Virus record (IMG/VR): IMGVR_UViG_3300049988_000286
Location: 64,001-128,000 of that record
DNA length: 64,000 nt
From: a virus
Taxonomy: Duplodnaviria; Caudoviricetes
Direction: 5' to 3' (one strand)
The notes under the pieces are model-generated. The model saw nothing but the letters and a program-made list of their open reading frames with translations. It did no database searches and had not been told where the DNA came from. The stretch's first letter is position 1, and each line of letters opens with the position of its first letter. The position numbers and the translations under genes are program-made. This document shows, in pieces, positions 4,172-42,425 of this stretch.

Positions 4172-4259
4172 TGGTTCTCCCCCGAGGACTCGAACCTCCA
4201 TCCCTTACGAGAGCCCACGATTCAGAGCCGTGTCGCCTTACCAGTTAGCGGAGGGGAGA
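4172..4259 (-). tRNA. tRNA-Gln(CUG) with long variable arm
   Basis: Acceptor TCTCCCC/GGGGAGA, anticodon stem CACGG/TCGTG with loop CT-CTG-AA, T-loop TTCGAGT, encoded CCA, 16-nt variable region. Confidence 0.85.
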
Positions 4260-4268
4260 ATATGTGAT

Positions 4269-4342
4269 TGGATCGGGCGACAGGGATCGAACCTGTATTG
4301 TGAAGGCCAAAACTTCATGTCCTGCCATTAGACGACGCCCGA
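4269..4342 (-). tRNA. tRNA-Gln(UUG)
   Basis: Acceptor TCGGGCG/CGCCCGA (U1-A72), stem TGAAG/CTTCA with loop TT-TTG-GC, T-arm ACAGG-TTCGATC-CCTGT, CCA. Confidence 0.92.
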
Positions 4343-5197: not shown

Positions 5198-5397
5198 CAG
5201 GCGCTCCGCCGTTCGAAGAGACAGCACACCACGATGCCGCCCATGTAGCCGGTATTGGCGATCGAGACGTTGACAAGTTCCACCGGCGATCGACCTAGCG
5301 AGTCGCTGTGACCTGCCGTCACCTCTGCGCAAAGCTTCTCCACCACGGTATCGATTTCACCCGGTGTACACGACTTGGAGCGTGTGAAGCGGTTCAT
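5197..5397 (-). CDS. hypothetical protein
   Basis: TGATG overlap. Confidence 0.5.
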   Translation of the reverse strand: MNRFTRSKSCTPGEIDTVVEKLCAEVTAGHSDSLGRSPVELVNVSIANTGYMGGIVVCCLFERRSA

Positions 5398-5651
5398 CAC
5401 GCAAACCTCAACTTGAACAATTCGGCATCTTCGAGGGTCCGGAAGGCGAAAACCCATTCATATCCAGAGAAGACATCGGGATCGGGTGCTCCCCAATCGT
5501 CACCGAAGGTTTCATGGAGCCAACCCATCACCTCATCCTGCCGGTCGAGCCAATGCTCGCTCACGGCATTGAAGGCGATTGTCCGCGCATCGATGGTGAC
5601 TTCCCAAGGATGGTCGTTACGCGCGATTGTGATCGGAAGGCCTAAAGACAT
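5397..5651 (-). CDS. DAxLF small-protein family member
   Basis: WLHETFG...FRTLEDAELFKLRF. Confidence 0.7.
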   Translation of the reverse strand: MSLGLPITIARNDHPWEVTIDARTIAFNAVSEHWLDRQDEVMGWLHETFGDDWGAPDPDVFSGYEWVFAFRTLEDAELFKLRFA

Positions 5652-5964: not shown

Positions 5965-6153
5965 TCACTGCGCCCACTGGCGCGCGAGCGAGTCGCGCTG
6001 CTGCCGAAGGTGGAAGAGGAAGTTGCTCGCCTCCACTTCACCAGCATCCAAGCGGGCGAGACCCTCGAAGACGAAGCGCAGCGTTTCCGCCGCATCCTTG
6101 ATCTGGCGGATGGTGAGGGTCTCGGGATTGAACGGGATCGGGTTGGTGGCCAT
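5965..6153 (-). CDS. hypothetical protein
   Basis: ATG after AAAGGAAG. Confidence 0.6.
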   Translation of the reverse strand: MATNPIPFNPETLTIRQIKDAAETLRFVFEGLARLDAGEVEASNFLFHLRQQRDSLARQWAQ

Positions 6154-6210
6154 CAGGGCTTCCTTTCGCCCCAGACCTACACCGAACTACTCTACTCGTC
6201 AAATCAATAT

Positions 6211-6339
6211 TGTCGCGAACCGGACTCGACACCGGCTGTTCGGTTTCGTCTTACTCAACCCTCGCGGGTTGGTCGGGGATCGAACCCGTTACAAACCTAC
6301 CAACTGACGTACGGGCGTGTCCTTCCACGCTGCCGCGAC
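6211..6339 (-). ncRNA. 129-nt tRNA-like RNA with expanded core and two T-arm-like hairpins
   Basis: Acceptor GTCGCGG/TCGCGAC, D-like GCGTG-GAAGGA-CACGC, terminal GCCGG-TGTCGAGT-CCGGT, internal CGGG-TTCGATC-CCCG; no encoded CCA. Confidence 0.6.
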
Positions 6340-6345
6340 GCCCTC

Positions 6346-6374
6346 GTAGTAGCGCTATGCGATATTGTCGTCAA
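6346..6374 (-). promoter_or_regulatory. sigma70-like promoter for the tRNA-like RNA
   Basis: TTGACG-N17-TACTAC; predicted +1 near 6339. Confidence 0.6.
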
Positions 6375-6399
6375 CGGTTTATTGCTCTACTTCGATGGG

Positions 6400-6627
6400 A
6401 TGAACCGAACGCCTTTCCGTATCGAGACGCAAGAACTGACCCGTTGGTCGGGCGAGCGGCTTGAGTTGAAAGAACCCTATGGCTCTTGGTGCAGGGACAA
6501 CATTGGCGGCATAGGGTTCGAGATTTGGTTCTGTCACGATTGGAACCGGCTCCGCACAACCCTTTATCTCGCCTCCGAGGAAGACCTGACCCTGTTCCGA
6601 ATTCGCTTTCCCGAGGTTGCAGAATGA
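6400..6627 (+). CDS. DAxLF family member
   Basis: WCRDNIG...LASEEDLTLFRIRF. Confidence 0.7.
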   Translation: MNRTPFRIETQELTRWSGERLELKEPYGSWCRDNIGGIGFEIWFCHDWNRLRTTLYLASEEDLTLFRIRFPEVAE

Positions 6628-6893
6628 TCATCCCTTATAGTGAGGCAACGCTGATCCTCTTCCAGTTCACGAAAGAAAAATCGGGCTTCTACGCGTTCGC
6701 GCTCGCGAGCAAAGCGAAGGAGTGGTGTAAAGCTTCACTGGGCTATGAGCCCGATTTGTCAGAATGCGACGCGGATGACGGGGGTTGCATCACCTTTCGT
6801 GATCAGCATGACGCCGACCTTTTCCGCTTCGCTTTCGCGGAGCACATCATCAGGGTTGAAGATAGTTCGCCGATGTGCGAAGACGAGGAATGA
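6624..6893 (+). CDS. DAxLF family member
   Basis: WCKASLG...FRDQHDADLFRFAF. Confidence 0.7.
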   Translation: MIIPYSEATLILFQFTKEKSGFYAFALASKAKEWCKASLGYEPDLSECDADDGGCITFRDQHDADLFRFAFAEHIIRVEDSSPMCEDEE

Positions 6894-7126
6894 CCCACGG
6901 CCTCGACTGCACGCGATCCGCCTTCGTGGTGCATCTCTTCCACTCCATCGACGATCCCGTCCCCGCCGTGGTGCCCCGCTCCGGTCTCGCGGAGTGGGCG
7001 ATGGAGCAATTTGGCTACATCCCCACGGGCGAGGTGATCCAAGGTCGCCCGCACCTCATCTTCCGTTTCGCCGAAGACGCGACGCTGTTCCGCCTTCATT
7101 TCGCACACCTCTGGGGACGAGAGTGA
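6890..7126 (+). CDS. DAxLF family member
   Basis: WAMEQFG...FRFAEDATLFRLHF. Confidence 0.7.
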   Translation: MTHGLDCTRSAFVVHLFHSIDDPVPAVVPRSGLAEWAMEQFGYIPTGEVIQGRPHLIFRFAEDATLFRLHFAHLWGRE

Positions 7127-9546: not shown

Positions 9547-9628
9547 GGGCTAGTATCGCCGCCGTTTTCTAAACGGTCGTTAAAAGCGTAATTGGAGTAT
9601 GCGGGTTCGAGTCCTGCCTAGCCCGCCA
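9547..9628 (+). tRNA. D-armless tRNA-like RNA, anticodon UCU
   Basis: Acceptor GGGCTAG/CTAGCCC, G73, CCA; T-arm GCGGG-TTCGAGT-CCTGC; stem GCCGT/ACGGT with loop TT-TCT-AA; only 7 nt where the D arm should be; TAAATA 4 nt upstream. Confidence 0.6.
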
Positions 9629-13695: not shown

Positions 13696-15573
13696 TTAAA
13701 TCCCCATCCACTTCTTACGGTCATCGGCTCGGCTTGCATTAAAGAGAAGGTCGAGCGCCTCCTTGAGTTTGCCGTCCTCGACGATCGGGGTCAGCTTCGG
13801 ATCGGCCAGAGCATTGACCCAATCGGGCTTCTTCAACGCCGCCAAGCCTTTCGCGCGGGTGATCTCCCACCCCTTCATCTCCTGTTGATCAAATGTCTGA
13901 TAATCATCCTTGTACCAGTATCGCCGCTGCTTCCCCTTCGATGCAATAATCAACGGAGTGTCGAAGACGTAGATGAAGGGATCACTGGGGTCGAACAATT
14001 CCGGCCATAGCTGGTAGAAGAAATTCACCAAGAGGCTTGTAATATCTTTGCCGTCTTCGTCAGCGTCGCACGTGATATAGATTTTACCGTAGCGGAGTTT
14101 CGACCTTACGGCGCGCTCGCCACAACTCAAACCCACTGATCGCATGATCTGCAACAAGGCTTCGTTGGACGCGATCGTCTTCAGCGATGACTTGCTGGGA
14201 TGGCAGTTCAGCACCTTACCCCGGAGCGGCAGGGCACCATGGAGGTTCTTGTCACGCGCCTCGATAAAGCCAGAAATCGCCGAATCACCCTCCGCGAGCA
14301 ACAATACGGCGTTGCGACGCACGAGACCGATCGAATCGATGAGCTTCTCGACCTTCTGCTTGCGGCCCGCCTTGTTGATCTTTGCCAACTCGCTGGCATC
14401 CTTCTTCATGGTGCGCTCTTCGCACCGGGTGAAGATGGCCGCGATCCAATCGGGGTGACGCTTGATCAAGTCCTTGTAGAAATCTGGGTTTTCGAGGTGG
14501 CGCTTCATCACCGAAGCGACTTCCTCGTTGATCAGACGAGTCTTCGACTGCGAATCAAAGTTTGGAGCCGTCATATTGGTGATGTTGTAGATAAACATGC
14601 CATCTTGGATGTCAGAACGATTCGGCGCAAGCTTGCGCTTCTTCGCCTCTCGCTCCAGCCCACCTAGCATCCCCGCGTAGAAGAGACGCCGGAAGGCATC
14701 GACGTGAACGCCACCATTGAACACTGGGATGTTGTTGACGAGCGAGTGGATGTGTTCGACACCCTCGTTCCCGTAGGTGATCCAGAATTTGCTCCGCAGC
14801 GTGCCTTCGTTGATCTCAACACAGATGGGCTTCCGGCCGGGAAAGAGCGTCTGCTCCTGCCGGGGCTTGACCTTGATCTGCTCGCCGTTGTAGAAAATCT
14901 TCAAGGCAGGATTGCAGATCGCGATCTCGGTTACGCGCGACCGCACAAAGTCCTCCGGCAAGATGCGCGACTTAAAGACTTCGTTACTGGGCAGGAACTC
15001 GATCTTGGTTCCCGTCTTGTCGCTCTTCACCTCGGTGATCTTGGGTTTGGCGATGTCGATCTGTTTACTGCCCGGCATTCCCTCCCGGTACGTCTGGGTA
15101 AACTTCTTACCGTCGCGATGAATCTCGACCTTGAACCATTCGGCAGTGATAGAGACAGCCGATGATCCGATGCCGTTGACACCCGCGACTTCACCACGCT
15201 CATCGAAGTTGCGACCGGCGCGAGGCTCGGTCAGCACCATGGTGGCGAGATACTGGTTGTGGGCCTTGTCGAACTCGATCGGGATGCCGCGTCCATTATC
15301 AGCGACAGTGAAGATCAGCTTCTCTGCATCGAAGCCGACATCGATCCGGCTACCGTGGCCGTGGCCAACTATCTCATCAAGGGCGTTGTCGATGATTTCG
15401 CGCAAACAGGTGAAGAGAGCGGGGGTCCAAGTCACCTCAACAACACGAGGCTGAATGTCCTCGCTGTAGAGAACGATTGATTGAACGTGGGGTTCGATCG
15501 AGCCGAGATACATGTTCGTGCGAAGACGAATGTGCTCGTAATCGGTCTTTTTCTTAATTCCGTGGGTGGTCAT
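13696..15573 (-). CDS. type II DNA topoisomerase, ATPase/TOPRIM subunit (T4 gp39+60-like)
   Basis: EHIRLRTNMYLGS, EIIDNALDE, DNGRGIP, G.NG.G, AEGDSA, PLRGKVLN, DADEDG, KGLAAL. Confidence 0.95.
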   Translation of the reverse strand: MTTHGIKKKTDYEHIRLRTNMYLGSIEPHVQSIVLYSEDIQPRVVEVTWTPALFTCLREIIDNALDEIVGHGHGSRIDVGFDAEKLIFTVADNGRGIPIEFDKAHNQYLATMVLTEPRAGRNFDERGEVAGVNGIGSSAVSITAEWFKVEIHRDGKKFTQTYREGMPGSKQIDIAKPKITEVKSDKTGTKIEFLPSNEVFKSRILPEDFVRSRVTEIAICNPALKIFYNGEQIKVKPRQEQTLFPGRKPICVEINEGTLRSKFWITYGNEGVEHIHSLVNNIPVFNGGVHVDAFRRLFYAGMLGGLEREAKKRKLAPNRSDIQDGMFIYNITNMTAPNFDSQSKTRLINEEVASVMKRHLENPDFYKDLIKRHPDWIAAIFTRCEERTMKKDASELAKINKAGRKQKVEKLIDSIGLVRRNAVLLLAEGDSAISGFIEARDKNLHGALPLRGKVLNCHPSKSSLKTIASNEALLQIMRSVGLSCGERAVRSKLRYGKIYITCDADEDGKDITSLLVNFFYQLWPELFDPSDPFIYVFDTPLIIASKGKQRRYWYKDDYQTFDQQEMKGWEITRAKGLAALKKPDWVNALADPKLTPIVEDGKLKEALDLLFNASRADDRKKWMGI

Positions 15574-15655
15574 ACTTCCTTTCATTACCGCGTAGAGTTC
15601 CCCGCGCGCAATATACTTGATCGATGGCCGTATATAGTCCGGAGATTGATTTGGC

Positions 15656-15683
15656 TTGACTCCGAACTGCGGCGTGGTAAGAA
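15656..15683 (+). promoter_or_regulatory. sigma70-like promoter
   Basis: TTGACT-N16-TAAGAA, 7 nt before ATG 15691. Confidence 0.4.
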
Positions 15684-15690
15684 CGCTGCT

Positions 15691-16095
15691 ATGGGTATCG
15701 CGCCGATCATCAACCGCAACACATGGTTCCCCAGCTTCTTCTGGTGGCTTCCGGCTGACGCCGTTCTGGTTGAGGAAGCGGAGCAGTTGCTCGTCAATTC
15801 CGAGCCATGGCTGTGTATGAACCCCGATGTCTGCTTCTACATGCGGGGGCTGCAATGGTGGGAGGTCAAGCGCCGCGCCAAGCGATTGGGTGATCGGATG
15901 GTGGCCGTCGTCAGTGACTTGGCGTATAAGGACGCGGCTCGTTACAGCGACATCAAGCAGATCATCGAGCGTTCACCAGTGCCGGTCCGCGTGCACCTTC
16001 GCTACACAGTAGGGCGTAGCACGCTTGCCGCCGACGCTGCCTTCATCGAGTTCATCGACGCCGCTGATGCGACACTGTTCAGGCTCGCGCTATGA
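15691..16095 (+). CDS. DAxLF family member
   Basis: C-terminal FIDAADATLFRLAL. Confidence 0.65.
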   Translation: MGIAPIINRNTWFPSFFWWLPADAVLVEEAEQLLVNSEPWLCMNPDVCFYMRGLQWWEVKRRAKRLGDRMVAVVSDLAYKDAARYSDIKQIIERSPVPVRVHLRYTVGRSTLAADAAFIEFIDAADATLFRLAL

Positions 16096-38237: not shown

Positions 38238-38314
38238 GCTCGTGTGGCTGAAATGGGAATGGCTACGGACACTAAATCCGTAAGATGTGGGTTCGATCCC
38301 CACGGCGAGCGCCA
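38238..38314 (+). tRNA. tRNA with anticodon CUA (amber suppressor-type)
   Basis: GCTCGTG/GGCGAGC acceptor (one mismatch), ACGGA-CACTAAA-TCCGT, GTGGG-TTCGATC-CCCAC, G73, CCA. Confidence 0.8.
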
Positions 38315-42350: not shown

Positions 42351-42425
42351 TGGTGGGAATACTCGGATTCGAACCGAGGACACACGGTTTTAGGGACCGC
42401 TGTTCTACCGCTGAACTATACTCCC
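42351..42425 (-). tRNA. tRNA with anticodon CUA (amber suppressor-type, Trp-like anticodon arm)
   Basis: GGGAGTA/TATTCCC, GTTC-AGCGGTA-GAAC, GCGGT-CCCTAAA-ACCGT, CTCGG-TTCGAAT-CCGAG, A73, CCA. Confidence 0.85.

What the first reader, a model, noticed from the sequence alone, without database searches (positions are those of the whole stretch)
6211..6374. 129-nt tRNA-like RNA with a second internal T-arm and its own promoter
Seen (minus strand): a 7-bp acceptor stem GTCGCGG/TCGCGAC, a D-like hairpin and a terminal T-like hairpin. In place of the anticodon arm is a ~75-nt insert containing a second canonical T-hairpin (CGGG-TTCGATC-CCCG) nested in GTTGGT/ACCAAC, with an alternative CAACCC-GCGA-GGGTTG hairpin. 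TTGACG-N17-TACTAC places +1 at about the first G. No CCA is encoded. Established: bacterial and phage Y RNAs (YrlA) mimic tRNA. Inference: a tRNA-mimic decoy (for anticodon nucleases, T-box/RNase P-type readers or Ro60) and a possible substrate of the phage CCA enzyme.
Basis: partly seen in the sequence, partly recalled or inferred. Interest (0 to 1): 0.7.

Follow-up and report, generated by a model that had tools for sequence, protein, structure and literature searches.

The report
Phage tRNA-elbow-mimic RNA, new family
The flagged stretch holds a real, conserved structured RNA built from tRNA parts (a T arm, a capped acceptor-like hairpin and a D-loop-like strand, but no anticodon arm). It recurs in the tRNA gene regions of unrelated phages, is in no RNA catalogue I could search, and its job is unknown.

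Summary
They do not carry equal weight.

**Outer cloverleaf: not above chance.** The 7-bp end stem, 5' hairpin and 3' T-like hairpin form a skeleton that occurs about 180 times by chance in this 500-kb phage. The 3' loop has 8 nt, not 7. Rfam and ARAGORN do not call the region.

**Inner domain: a real RNA family.** The "second T-arm" domain (RNA nt 29-98, window 6242-6311) is conserved:
- My covariance model finds it once per genome.
- Hosts include an AT-rich 455-kb megaphage clade, the cultured Rhizobium phages RHph_Y65 and TM21B, a metagenome-bin (MAG) contig, and more weakly Klebsiella phage VLCpiM5a.
- It is unannotated everywhere, and nearly always sits inside or at the head of tRNA gene clusters.

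**Structure.**
- Covariation supports the T stem, the CAACCC/GGGUUG hairpin and a closing helix: 9 of 18 tested pairs show compensatory changes.
- Loops and junctions are nearly invariant.

**Family tests.** It is not a tRNA, YrlA or tmRNA. The closest analogues are T4 RNAC and RNAD.

**Best reading.** It is a stable mimic of the tRNA upper half (elbow), made with the phage tRNAs, that engages a shape-reading tRNA factor. Function is inferred, not shown.

This scan has not noted the sequence on other DNA.

The parts
6369..6374 (-). -35-like hexamer TTGACG
   Evidence: Read. It aligns with TTGACA of the homologous promoter in L007. It is unchanged in the close relative from run X2.
6346..6351 (-). 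Weak -10-like hexamer TACTAC, 17 nt after the -35
   Evidence: Read. The promoter scan does not call it. It reads TAGTGC in the X2 relative. AT-rich homologues have TATAAN at this place.
6333..6339 (-). 5' strand of the outer end stem (RNA nt 1-7)
   Evidence: Read. It pairs with 6212-6218 in every fold. An analogous 6-bp end stem, GGCGCG/CGCGCC, encloses the L020 homologue. The AT-rich clade and RHph_Y65 lack one.
6315..6330 (-).
   Evidence: either a 5-bp stem with a 6-nt loop, or a 4-bp stem with an 8-nt loop. U8, A14 and A21 are not canonical. It is lineage-specific; L020 has a smaller hairpin at the same place.
6306..6310 (-). Conserved ACGUC (RNA nt 30-34); nt 31-34 are the 5' strand of the tentative helix Py
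   Evidence: ACG-C is invariant in 11 homologues. The middle pair changes from G-C to U-A in the window and L020. Py is pseudoknotted relative to Px, so it is tentative.
6298..6305 (-). D-loop-like strand AGUUGGUA (RNA nt 35-42)
   Evidence: Nearly invariant across the family. It matches positions A14 to A21 of the canonical tRNA D loop, including G18 and G19.
6293..6297 (-). Closing helix Px, 5' strand GGUUU (RNA nt 43-47)
   Evidence: It pairs with AAACC at 6242-6246. The same helix reads GUGUG/CACAC, CACA/UGUG, UUGG/CCAA and CGCUG/CAGCG in other lineages.
6274..6288 (-). Canonical T arm CGGG-UUCGAUC-CCCG (RNA nt 52-66)
   Evidence: The loop is invariant, and the second pair alternates between G-C and A-U (6 versus 5 sequences).
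6256..6271 (-). Capped acceptor-like hairpin H3, CAACCC-GCGA-GGGUUG (RNA nt 69-84)
   Evidence: Four of its six pairs show compensatory changes, and loop length varies. It starts two conserved nucleotides after the T stem's last Watson-Crick pair; both face a mismatch.
6247..6255 (-). Conserved linker AGUAAG, then the 3' strand of Py (RNA nt 85-93)
   Evidence: GAGU(A/G)AG, which includes the last G of H3, is the same in 10 of the 11 homologues; VLCpiM5a has AGCUAG instead.
6242..6246 (-). Closing helix Px, 3' strand AAACC (RNA nt 94-98)
   Evidence: The single substitution in the X2 relative (6241, G99 to A) lies just outside this strand.
6219..6236 (-). 3' T-like hairpin GCCGG-UGUCGAGU-CCGGU (RNA nt 104-121)
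   Evidence: Its loop has 8 nt. Among the family members examined it occurs only in the window, and the X2 contig reports no change across it. It abuts the end stem as a T arm abuts an acceptor stem.
6212..6218 (-). 3' strand of the outer end stem (RNA nt 122-128), followed by A and no CCA
5965..6153 (-). First gene downstream on the same strand (62 aa)
   Evidence: GC3 is 0.85 and a Shine-Dalgarno sequence AAGGAAG precedes it. Its only homologue elsewhere sits in an operon that lacks the RNA.
4172..4342 (-). Two tRNA-Gln genes 1.9 kb downstream on the same strand
   Evidence: Nearly every relative also lies in or beside a tRNA gene cluster.

Best explanation
**What it is.** The locus encodes a member of a previously uncatalogued family of phage RNAs derived from tRNA.

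**Conserved core (about 70 nt, RNA nt 29-98).** It contains:
- a T arm with a canonical T loop;
- a hairpin (H3) immediately after it, sitting where the acceptor stem would be but closed by a loop;
- a closing helix (Px);
- a nearly invariant 5' strand, ACG-CAGUUGGU, that copies the tRNA D loop;
- invariant junctions UAAC and GAGUAAG.

There is no anticodon arm, and the acceptor-like hairpin has no free CCA end. In this phage, and in its close relative in run X2, the core is wrapped in a lineage-specific end stem, a 5' hairpin and a second T-like hairpin. Together these give the 129-nt cloverleaf look.

**Shown.** The motifs are conserved, three helices covary, there is one copy per genome, and the element is linked to tRNA gene clusters.

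**Inferred.**
- The D-loop-like GG docks on the T loop to rebuild the tRNA elbow on top of a T/H3 stack of about 12 layers. That would copy the upper half of a tRNA.
- The RNA is made from an early-type promoter, or from inside a tRNA transcript. RNase P cutting at a neighbouring tRNA, and 3' trimming, would free it, as happens for T4 RNAC and RNAD.
- It acts as a stable mimic that occupies or recruits a factor reading tRNA by shape rather than by anticodon. Candidates are RNase P, T-arm enzymes such as TrmA and TruB, or a tRNA-directed host nuclease.

**Confidence by step.**
- About 0.85 that this is a real functional tRNA-derived RNA family.
- About 0.4 that it works in trans as an elbow mimic.
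For: **Homologues**
- A pattern scan found the core in a 455-kb AT-rich megaphage.
- Neighbouring proteins led to six more versions.
- blastn links the AT-rich version (E 2e-8) and the window core itself (E 4e-4) to Rhizobium phages RHph_Y65 and TM21B.
- A genome-collection scan found a MAG contig, L020.

**Covariance model R1**
- It scores all members at 59-100 bits, and VLCpiM5a at 35 bits.
- Ordinary tRNAs reach 14 bits or less.
- It finds a single significant copy in each phage genome searched.

**Covariation**
- On the MAFFT alignment, 91.8% of cells pair, against 24-51% when partners are slid. Eight pairs show double changes, and 0 of 500 shuffles reach the observed value.
- On the model-fitted alignment, 94.3% of cells pair, and 9 pairs and 25 cells show double changes.
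- Px has five different complementary sequences in five lineages.

**Other support**
- The comparative structure costs only 2 kcal/mol more than the minimum-free-energy fold in the window.
- In a close relative (run X2) the 129 nt carry 1 substitution, while the 50 nt just upstream carry 13 substitutions and a deletion.

**Context**
- In RHph_Y65 the element starts about 10 nt after the end of tRNA-Met, inside a tRNA array.
- In L011 and L012 it ends 5 nt before tRNA-Lys.
- In VLCpiM5a it lies between tRNA-Asp and tRNA-Pro.
- L007, L014 and L027 all lie in tRNA islands.

**Precedent.** T4 makes two small RNAs from its tRNA region whose roles are unknown (PMC3014915; PMC9697503). T4 rnaC also ends in a canonical T arm plus an acceptor-like strand.
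Against: - No transcript has been shown for any member.
- The L020 copy has no tRNA gene within 8 kb.
- In five lineages the element lies just upstream of a Shine-Dalgarno sequence and an ORF. That also fits a cis-acting leader.
- The D-loop/T-loop contact involves only invariant bases, so covariation cannot test it.
- The strand order differs from tRNA. The tentative helix Py is pseudoknotted with Px, so the 3D analogy to the tRNA elbow may fail.
- Evidence for Px in single lineages is modest: shuffle p is 0.06-0.32 each, and my Fisher combination by hand gives about 0.02.
- Only about six independent lineages are known.
- No binding partner has been identified.
Confidence: 0.55

Rival explanations
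1. It is a cis-acting 5' leader: an attenuator, a riboswitch-like sensor, or a processing or stability module. On this reading it controls the genes and tRNAs downstream in the same transcript rather than acting as a free RNA. Alternative pairings (Px versus Py, or GGU/ACC versus H3) could be the switch.
For: - In the window, L007, L013, L014, L027 and L020 it follows a promoter-like site directly.
- In the first five of these it precedes a Shine-Dalgarno sequence and an ORF by 10-60 nt.
- In the AT-rich clade and in L020 the closing helix is followed by AA(A)UUUUU.
- In the window, conservation in the X2 relative runs on through the 58 nt up to the ATG.
- Mutually exclusive pairings exist.
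Against: - The downstream ORFs are unrelated to each other.
- In RHph_Y65, L011, L012 and VLCpiM5a the neighbours are tRNA genes, not ORFs.
- The homologue of the window's 62-aa gene occurs elsewhere without the RNA.
- A 5-bp helix followed by a 3-nt spacer makes a poor terminator, and the terminator scan finds none here on this strand.
Confidence: 0.25
2. The whole 129-nt cloverleaf is the functional unit: a tRNA decoy for anticodon nucleases or Ro60, and a substrate of the phage CCA-adding enzyme.
For: - The outer stems are present and energetically favoured.
- The end stem plus the abutting 3' hairpin give a 12-bp open-ended minihelix.
- In the X2 relative, conservation begins 4 nt before nt 1.
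- L020 and the T5-like elements also have end stems.
- The phage encodes a CCA-adding-family enzyme.
Against: - There is no anticodon arm.
- The outer skeleton arises about 180 times by chance in this genome.
- Most homologues lack it.
- No YrlA, Y RNA, tRNA or tmRNA model matches.
- The phage has no Ro60 gene.
- RHph_Y65 has the RNA but no CCA enzyme.
Confidence: 0.1
3. It is a decaying tRNA pseudogene, or a DNA-level site such as a homing-endonuclease or recombination target in tRNA clusters, with no RNA function.
For: - It is made of tRNA-like pieces.
- tRNA clusters in these phages carry homing endonuclease genes.
- The window copy looks like a nested duplication of D-like and T-like units.
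Against: - About 40 of 78 core positions are identical between phages of about 40% and 58% GC whose flanks share no similarity.
- Stems change by compensatory substitutions while loops stay fixed. That is the signature of selection on an RNA fold.
Confidence: 0.05

Closest known systems
Phage T4 RNAC (species 1) and RNAD (species 2), small stable RNAs of the T4 tRNA gene cluster
   Same: - They are non-coding RNAs of 119-139 nt encoded among phage tRNA genes on the tRNA strand.
- RNAC ends in a canonical T arm followed by an acceptor-like strand, with the rest replaced by hairpins.
- Their function is unknown (PMC3014915; PMC9697503).
   Different: - There is no sequence or model similarity: R1 finds nothing in T4.
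- In RNAC the T arm is at the 3' end with an open acceptor-like stem.
- In this family the T arm is internal, the acceptor-like helix is capped, and a D-loop-like strand lies 5' of it.
YrlA / bacterial Y RNA tRNA-like domain (Rfam RF02553)
   Same: Both mimic tRNA without an anticodon function. From my own knowledge of the YrlA structure, its acceptor-like stem is also closed by a loop.
   Different: - No match to RF02553 or Y_RNA on any member.
- There is no Ro-binding stem, and the phage has no Ro60 gene.
- The strand order is different.
tRNA (Rfam RF00005) and the unusual long-arm or D-armless tRNAs of this same phage
   Same: It has a canonical T loop, a D-loop sequence with G18 and G19, and a T stem followed by an acceptor-like strand.
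   Different: - It lacks an anticodon arm and a free acceptor end.
- RF00005 and ARAGORN do not detect it.
- R1 scores real tRNAs at 14 bits or less.
tmRNA tRNA-like domain, including the two-piece (permuted) form
   Same: Both have a T arm plus acceptor module with a reduced D element. In permuted tmRNA genes the T arm and 3' acceptor strand also precede the 5' acceptor strand. This phage carries such a gene at genome position 15556-15913.
   Different: It has no tag reading frame, no CCA and no pseudoknot ring. ARAGORN's tmRNA mode finds nothing here.
Unannotated element between tRNA-Leu and tRNA-Ser of T5-like phages (Sealy, DU_PP_V, phiLLS and 231 records in all)
   Same: - It lies inside a tRNA array.
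- It has a 5' strand CUACNNC, a D-like strand, UUUUAAC, a T arm, and a hairpin with a UAAC-type loop.
- It has a closing helix with its own covariation: 7 compensatory pairs.
- R1 scores it at 18-28 bits, E 0.001 to 0.15. The reciprocal model R2 hits L020 at E 0.006.
   Different: - The scores are borderline, and R2 does not find the window copy.
- It has no Px helix and a different linker.
- The relationship could be distant homology or a parallel derivation from tRNA.

Membership tests
tRNA (RF00005) | Detected by the tRNA covariance model or by ARAGORN | tested here: not met
   No hit at the gathering score or at E up to 10. ARAGORN finds nothing at default settings and only inconsistent calls at 60-80% thresholds.
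tRNA (RF00005) | Anticodon stem-loop with U33 and a purine at position 37 | tested here: not met
   No 5-bp stem with a 7-nt loop fits after the 5' hairpin. No such arm is conserved in homologues.
tRNA (RF00005) | T arm with the loop UUCRANY, and a D loop with GG | tested here: met
   The internal T arm has the loop UUCGAUC, and the strand AGUUGGUA is present. Both are nearly invariant.
YrlA / Y RNA | Match to Rfam RF02553 or RF00019 | tested here: not met
   No match on the window or on five homologous loci at E up to 1-10.
YrlA / Y RNA | A Ro60 (TROVE) partner is encoded | tested here: not met
   PF05731 is absent from the 499,572-bp phage; the control genomes gave hits. The host genome could not be tested.
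tmRNA | tRNA-like domain plus a tag reading frame | tested here: not met
   ARAGORN's tmRNA mode finds nothing, even at 70% threshold. The phage's tmRNA lies elsewhere.
T4 RNAC/RNAD | Sequence or structure homology to T4 rnaC or rnaD | tested here: not met
   R1 finds no match in the whole T4 genome. The folds differ.
T4 RNAC/RNAD | Small non-coding RNA encoded within a phage tRNA cluster on the tRNA strand | tested here: inconclusive
   The genomic position requirement is met in RHph_Y65, TM21B, VLCpiM5a and the AT-rich clade. No RNA has been observed for any member.
New family defined here (model R1) | Blocks ACG-CAGU-GGU, UAAC, GGUUCGAUCCC-GACC and GAGURAG in this order, with the T stem, H3 and Px | tested here: met
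   The window scores 81.2 bits, E 1e-15. All blocks are present.
Sigma-70-type promoter | -35 and -10 hexamers at 16-18 nt spacing, with the conserved A2 and T6 of the -10 | tested here: inconclusive
   TTGACG, 17 nt, TACTAC lacks T6, so the scan does not call it. The -35 and part of the spacer align with strong promoters in homologues. The -10 is not conserved in the X2 relative.

The most novel reading that the evidence does not exclude
Phages of several unrelated lineages (megaphages, T4-like rhizobiophages, a Klebsiella Mydovirus and possibly all T5-like phages) share an undescribed class of RNA. It copies only the shape-bearing upper half of tRNA, in a rearranged strand order and with a sealed acceptor end. 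They use it to jam or recruit a factor that recognises tRNAs by their elbow. Examples would be a host tRNA-directed immune nuclease or RNase P. The effect would be to protect or pace the phage's own tRNA supply.
Probability: 0.3. Interest if true: 0.8.

Novelty: new variant of a known kind. Interest (0 to 1): 0.62.

Why it matters
Small stable RNAs encoded among phage tRNA genes have been known in T4 for fifty years, and no function has been found for them. This work defines a second, sequence-unrelated family:
- it has a clear tRNA-derived architecture;
- its secondary structure is supported by covariation;
- it has members in cultured, tractable phages (Rhizobium phage RHph_Y65, Klebsiella phage VLCpiM5a), so its function can be tested directly.

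If it is an elbow mimic, it would add a shape-based layer to the current picture of phage tRNA genes as counter-measures to tRNA-targeting defences.

There is also a practical annotation point. These loci are currently blank in GenBank records, and tRNA finders do not see them.

Tried and rejected
**Expression**
- No RNA holder was listed for the stretch.
- The two metatranscriptome runs I laid (X14, X15) gave no contig over it. Under the tool's own rules this says nothing about expression.

**Searches through neighbouring proteins**
- Close-relative scans of viral contigs failed with the false 86-aa ORF, the 62-aa gene and the topoisomerase subunit.
- The only homologue of the 62-aa gene (72% identity, on a 163-kb contig) lies in an operon with a 52-nt upstream gap and no element.
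- More distant contigs linked by the NAD-synthetase-like gene (L029-L035) have no R1 hit.

**Pattern-scan false positives**
- L009 is coding sequence.
- L042 is an ordinary unannotated tRNA-Gly.
- L006 is a different tRNA-like sequence that lacks an anticodon arm.

**Structural ideas**
- ARAGORN at lowered thresholds gave mutually inconsistent calls, such as Trp with a 58-nt intron.
- I considered reading the RNA as tRNA-Asp, tRNA-Phe or tRNA-Trp, which ARAGORN does not find in this genome. No anticodon stem fits.
- I considered a simple circular permutation of tRNA. The order of the D element does not fit one.
- Helix Py stays tentative: it has one covarying pair and is pseudoknotted with Px.
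- The GUUGGU/ACCAAC helix is rejected as a conserved 6-bp helix. Its invariant inner GGU/ACC pairs can be neither tested nor excluded.

**Other**
- The CCA-enzyme family is present in G000, G001 and VLCpiM5a but absent from RHph_Y65, so co-occurrence is not strict.
- The paper listing about 10,000 candidate viral structured RNAs (PMC10690425) may contain this motif. I could not check its models.
Full report
**1. The observation**

I number the RNA from window 6339 (nt 1) to 6211 (nt 129).

- The end stem is GUCGCGG/UCGCGAC, 7 bp including one G-U pair.
- The 5' hairpin covers nt 10-25.
- The 3' hairpin is GCCGG/CCGGU, but its loop has 8 nt, not the 7 of a T loop.
- The internal hairpin CGGG-UUCGAUC-CCCG is a textbook T arm.
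- TTGACG, 17 nt, TACTAC, then 6 nt precede nt 1.
- No CCA follows the end stem.

The standard finders see nothing here.
- ARAGORN calls four other tRNAs in the window but not this one.
- Rfam gives no hit, even at E up to 10.
- The minimum-free-energy fold has a z-score of only -1.68.
- The promoter scan reports no site, because the -10 lacks its final T.

**2. Setting**

The window is part of a 499,572-bp phage record.
- The phage has T4-type topoisomerase genes.
- It carries about 41 tRNA genes and a permuted tmRNA. Many of the tRNAs have unusual long variable arms.

The element lies in a 246-bp divergent intergenic region.
- The minus-strand 62-aa gene starts at 6153. It has GC3 of 0.85 and a good ribosome-binding site.
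- A plus-strand 75-aa gene starts at 6400. It belongs to a local family of small paralogues.
- The 86-aa minus-strand ORF that overlaps the promoter has a non-coding codon-position GC pattern.

**3. Is the outer cloverleaf more than chance?**

I scanned the whole genome for the bare skeleton: a 7-bp end stem, 2 nt, a 4-bp hairpin, an insert, then a 5-bp hairpin with a 7-8-nt loop abutting the 3' strand. It occurs about 180 times outside tRNA genes. Base pairing of the outer part therefore carries no weight on its own.

**4. A close relative**

Contigs from a 2018 phyllosphere metagenome (run X2) cover 6044-6441 with 20 differences.
- Only one difference falls in the 129 nt. It is 6241, which is G99 to A and lies in an unpaired linker.
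- The 50 nt just upstream (6344-6393) carry 13 substitutions and a deletion.
- Those changes include two in the -10, which becomes TAGTGC. The -35 is unchanged.

Constraint therefore starts 4 nt before nt 1 and runs on to the ATG at 6153. This argues for function, but the relative is too close to give covariation.

**5. Distant homologues**

A scan for a D-loop-like word followed at short distance by a T-loop word found one true hit, in a 455,147-bp AT-rich megaphage. The alignment shows two things.
- Homology covers the -35, part of the spacer and the inner domain.
- It does not cover the window's nt 1-28 or nt 99-129.

Further members came from several routes.
- The neighbouring 112-aa and NAD-synthetase-like proteins led to six more versions in Logan and ENA assemblies.
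- blastn against GenBank phages tied the AT-rich version (E 2e-8) and the window core itself (E 4e-4) to Rhizobium phages RHph_Y65 and RHph_TM21B.
- A scan of species genomes found a MAG contig, L020.
- Klebsiella phage VLCpiM5a has a more divergent copy.

None of these loci is annotated, and Rfam matches none of them.

**6. Structure**

I built covariance model R1 from a MAFFT alignment of nine sequences.
- It scores the clear members at 59-100 bits. The window scores 81.2 bits.
- VLCpiM5a scores 35 bits, and ordinary tRNAs 14 bits or less.
- It finds a single significant copy in this phage, in the AT-rich megaphage, in RHph_Y65 and in VLCpiM5a, and none in T4.

Three nested helices are supported.

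| Helix | RNA nt | Support |
|---|---|---|
| T stem | 52-55 with 63-66 | One pair alternates between G-C and A-U |
| H3 | 69-74 with 79-84 | Four of six pairs show compensatory changes; loop length varies |
| Px | 43-47 with 94-98 | Five different complementary sequences in five lineages |

Px reads GGUUU/AAACC here, and GUGUG/CACAC, CACA/UGUG, UUGG/CCAA and CGCUG/CAGCG elsewhere.

The covariation counts are as follows.
- On the unfitted alignment, 91.8% of cells pair, against 24-51% when the partners are slid. Eight pairs show double changes, and none of 500 shuffles reaches the observed value.
- On the model-fitted alignment, 94.3% of cells pair, and 9 pairs and 25 cells show double changes.
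- Px alone is modest per lineage, with shuffle p of 0.06-0.32. My own Fisher combination over five lineages gives about 0.02.

A fourth helix, Py (31-34 with 90-93), has one covarying pair. It is pseudoknotted with Px, so I keep it as tentative.

In the window, the comparative structure together with the outer stems costs -48.6 kcal/mol.

**7. What the core looks like**

The nearly invariant parts are the loops and junctions: ACG-CAGU-GGU, UAAC, GGUUCGAUCCC-GACC and GAGURAG.
- The first block is the canonical tRNA D-loop sequence, including G18 and G19.
- The T loop is canonical.
- H3 follows the T stem with no free linker. Between them sit only a conserved A-A mismatch and a conserved C-A mismatch, which gives about 12 stacked layers. 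That matches the acceptor/T minihelix of tRNA, except that H3 is sealed by a loop.
- There is no anticodon arm.

I infer, but cannot test, that the GG docks on the T loop and rebuilds the tRNA elbow. The strand order is neither that of a tRNA nor that of a simple circular permutation.

**8. The outer parts**

Among the family members examined, only the window has nt 1-28 and 99-129, and the close relative in run X2 shows no change across them. End stems do recur, though.
- L020 has a 6-bp GGCGCG/CGCGCC stem and a small 5' hairpin in the same places.
- The T5-like elements have UGAUG/CAUCA.

I read the 129-nt cloverleaf as a lineage-specific wrapping of the conserved core. It may well be real in this phage, but it is unproven.

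**9. Context and likely biogenesis**

| Member | Position |
|---|---|
| RHph_Y65, TM21B | About 10 nt after the end of tRNA-Met, inside a tRNA array |
| L011, L012 | Ends 5 nt before tRNA-Lys(UUU) |
| L007, L013, L014, L027 | Promoter, element, a small ORF, then tRNA-Lys |
| VLCpiM5a | Between tRNA-Asp and tRNA-Pro |
| Window | 1.9 kb upstream of two tRNA-Gln genes on the same strand |
| L020 | No tRNA gene within 8 kb |

The AT-rich clade has strong promoters (TTGACA, 17 nt, TATAAN) ending a few nucleotides before the core.

It follows that tRNA-processing enzymes would set at least one end of the RNA in several lineages. This is the situation known for T4 RNAC and RNAD, whose roles are still unknown (PMC3014915; PMC9697503).

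**10. Comparison with known families**

- It is not a tRNA, tmRNA, YrlA or Y RNA by model.
- The phage has no Ro60 gene.
- The phage does encode a CCA-adding-family enzyme, at genome 98857-99225, which lies inside this window. RHph_Y65 carries the RNA without such an enzyme.
- The closest functional analogues are T4 RNAC and RNAD, but they are not homologous.
- T5-like phages carry, between tRNA-Leu and tRNA-Ser, an unannotated element with a similar layout and its own covariation (231 records).
- Cross-model scores between the two groups are borderline: E 0.001 to 0.15 in one direction, and 0.006 on L020 only in the other. I call these possible distant relatives.

**11. Verdict**

- *Observation:* partly confirmed.
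tRNA mimicry is supported. The anticodon-nuclease and Ro60 decoy ideas, and the proposed inner helix, are not.
- *Best explanation:* a new family of tRNA-derived RNAs that mimic the tRNA elbow and are tied to phage tRNA expression. The most likely mode is a stable mimic acting in trans on a shape-reading tRNA factor. The main rival is a cis-acting leader.
- *Earlier notes:* apart from the first-stage note on this same stretch, this scan's notes contain no look-alike on other DNA.

Noticed in passing
window 9547-9625 (+): A tRNA-like gene that Rfam scores exactly at threshold (29.3 bits). It has a perfect acceptor stem and T arm and a UCU anticodon hairpin. Only about 4 nt stand in place of the D arm, and there is an extra region of about 20 nt.
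   Followed up: no
window 38238-38314 (+) and 42351-42425 (-): Two tRNAs with the anticodon CUA, which reads the TAG stop codon. They suggest suppression or recoding of TAG in part of this phage's genes.
   Followed up: no
window 4172-4259 (-); genome-wide list: Many tRNAs of this phage (Met, Arg, Asn, Cys, Gln, Ile, Glu) carry hairpin-forming long variable arms, which are normally limited to Leu, Ser and Tyr. A further tRNA-like gene that ARAGORN misses lies at genome 26889-26975.
   Followed up: partly
window 6344-6393: A 50-nt hypervariable patch between this phage and its close relative in run X2: 13 substitutions and 1 deletion. It sits between two well-conserved blocks and covers the spacer and -10 of the claimed promoter, plus the 5' untranslated region of the plus-strand gene.
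   Followed up: partly
window 5397-5651 (-), 6400-6627 (+), 6486-6893 (+), 6875-7126 (+): A family of small paralogous proteins around the locus. They share a C-terminal motif like ..ED..LF.LRF and match no Pfam family.
   Followed up: no
L022:1182-1286, L023:293-396, L024:260-368 (T5-like phages): An unannotated structured element of about 105 nt between tRNA-Leu and tRNA-Ser, conserved in 231 T5-like phage records. It has 7 compensatory pairs in a 5-sequence alignment, an end stem, a closing helix, a T arm and a hairpin.
   Followed up: partly
L006:2630-2740 (IMGVR_UViG_3300046318_000024): A different tRNA-like sequence with an acceptor stem, a canonical D arm and a T arm but no anticodon arm. 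A second T-arm-like hairpin follows it.
   Followed up: no
L011:1531-1620: A wcaG RNA (RF01761; 53 bits, above the gathering score) lies in the AT-rich megaphage relative, close to its tRNA island.
   Followed up: no
L017:2580-2855 (RHph_Y65): About 280 nt of further unannotated, apparently non-coding sequence follow the element inside the tRNA array, before the next CDS.
   Followed up: no
genome 15556-15913 (outside the window): ARAGORN calls a permuted (two-piece type) tmRNA gene with the tag VNDNDIRMAIAA. This form is typical of Alphaproteobacteria.
   Followed up: no
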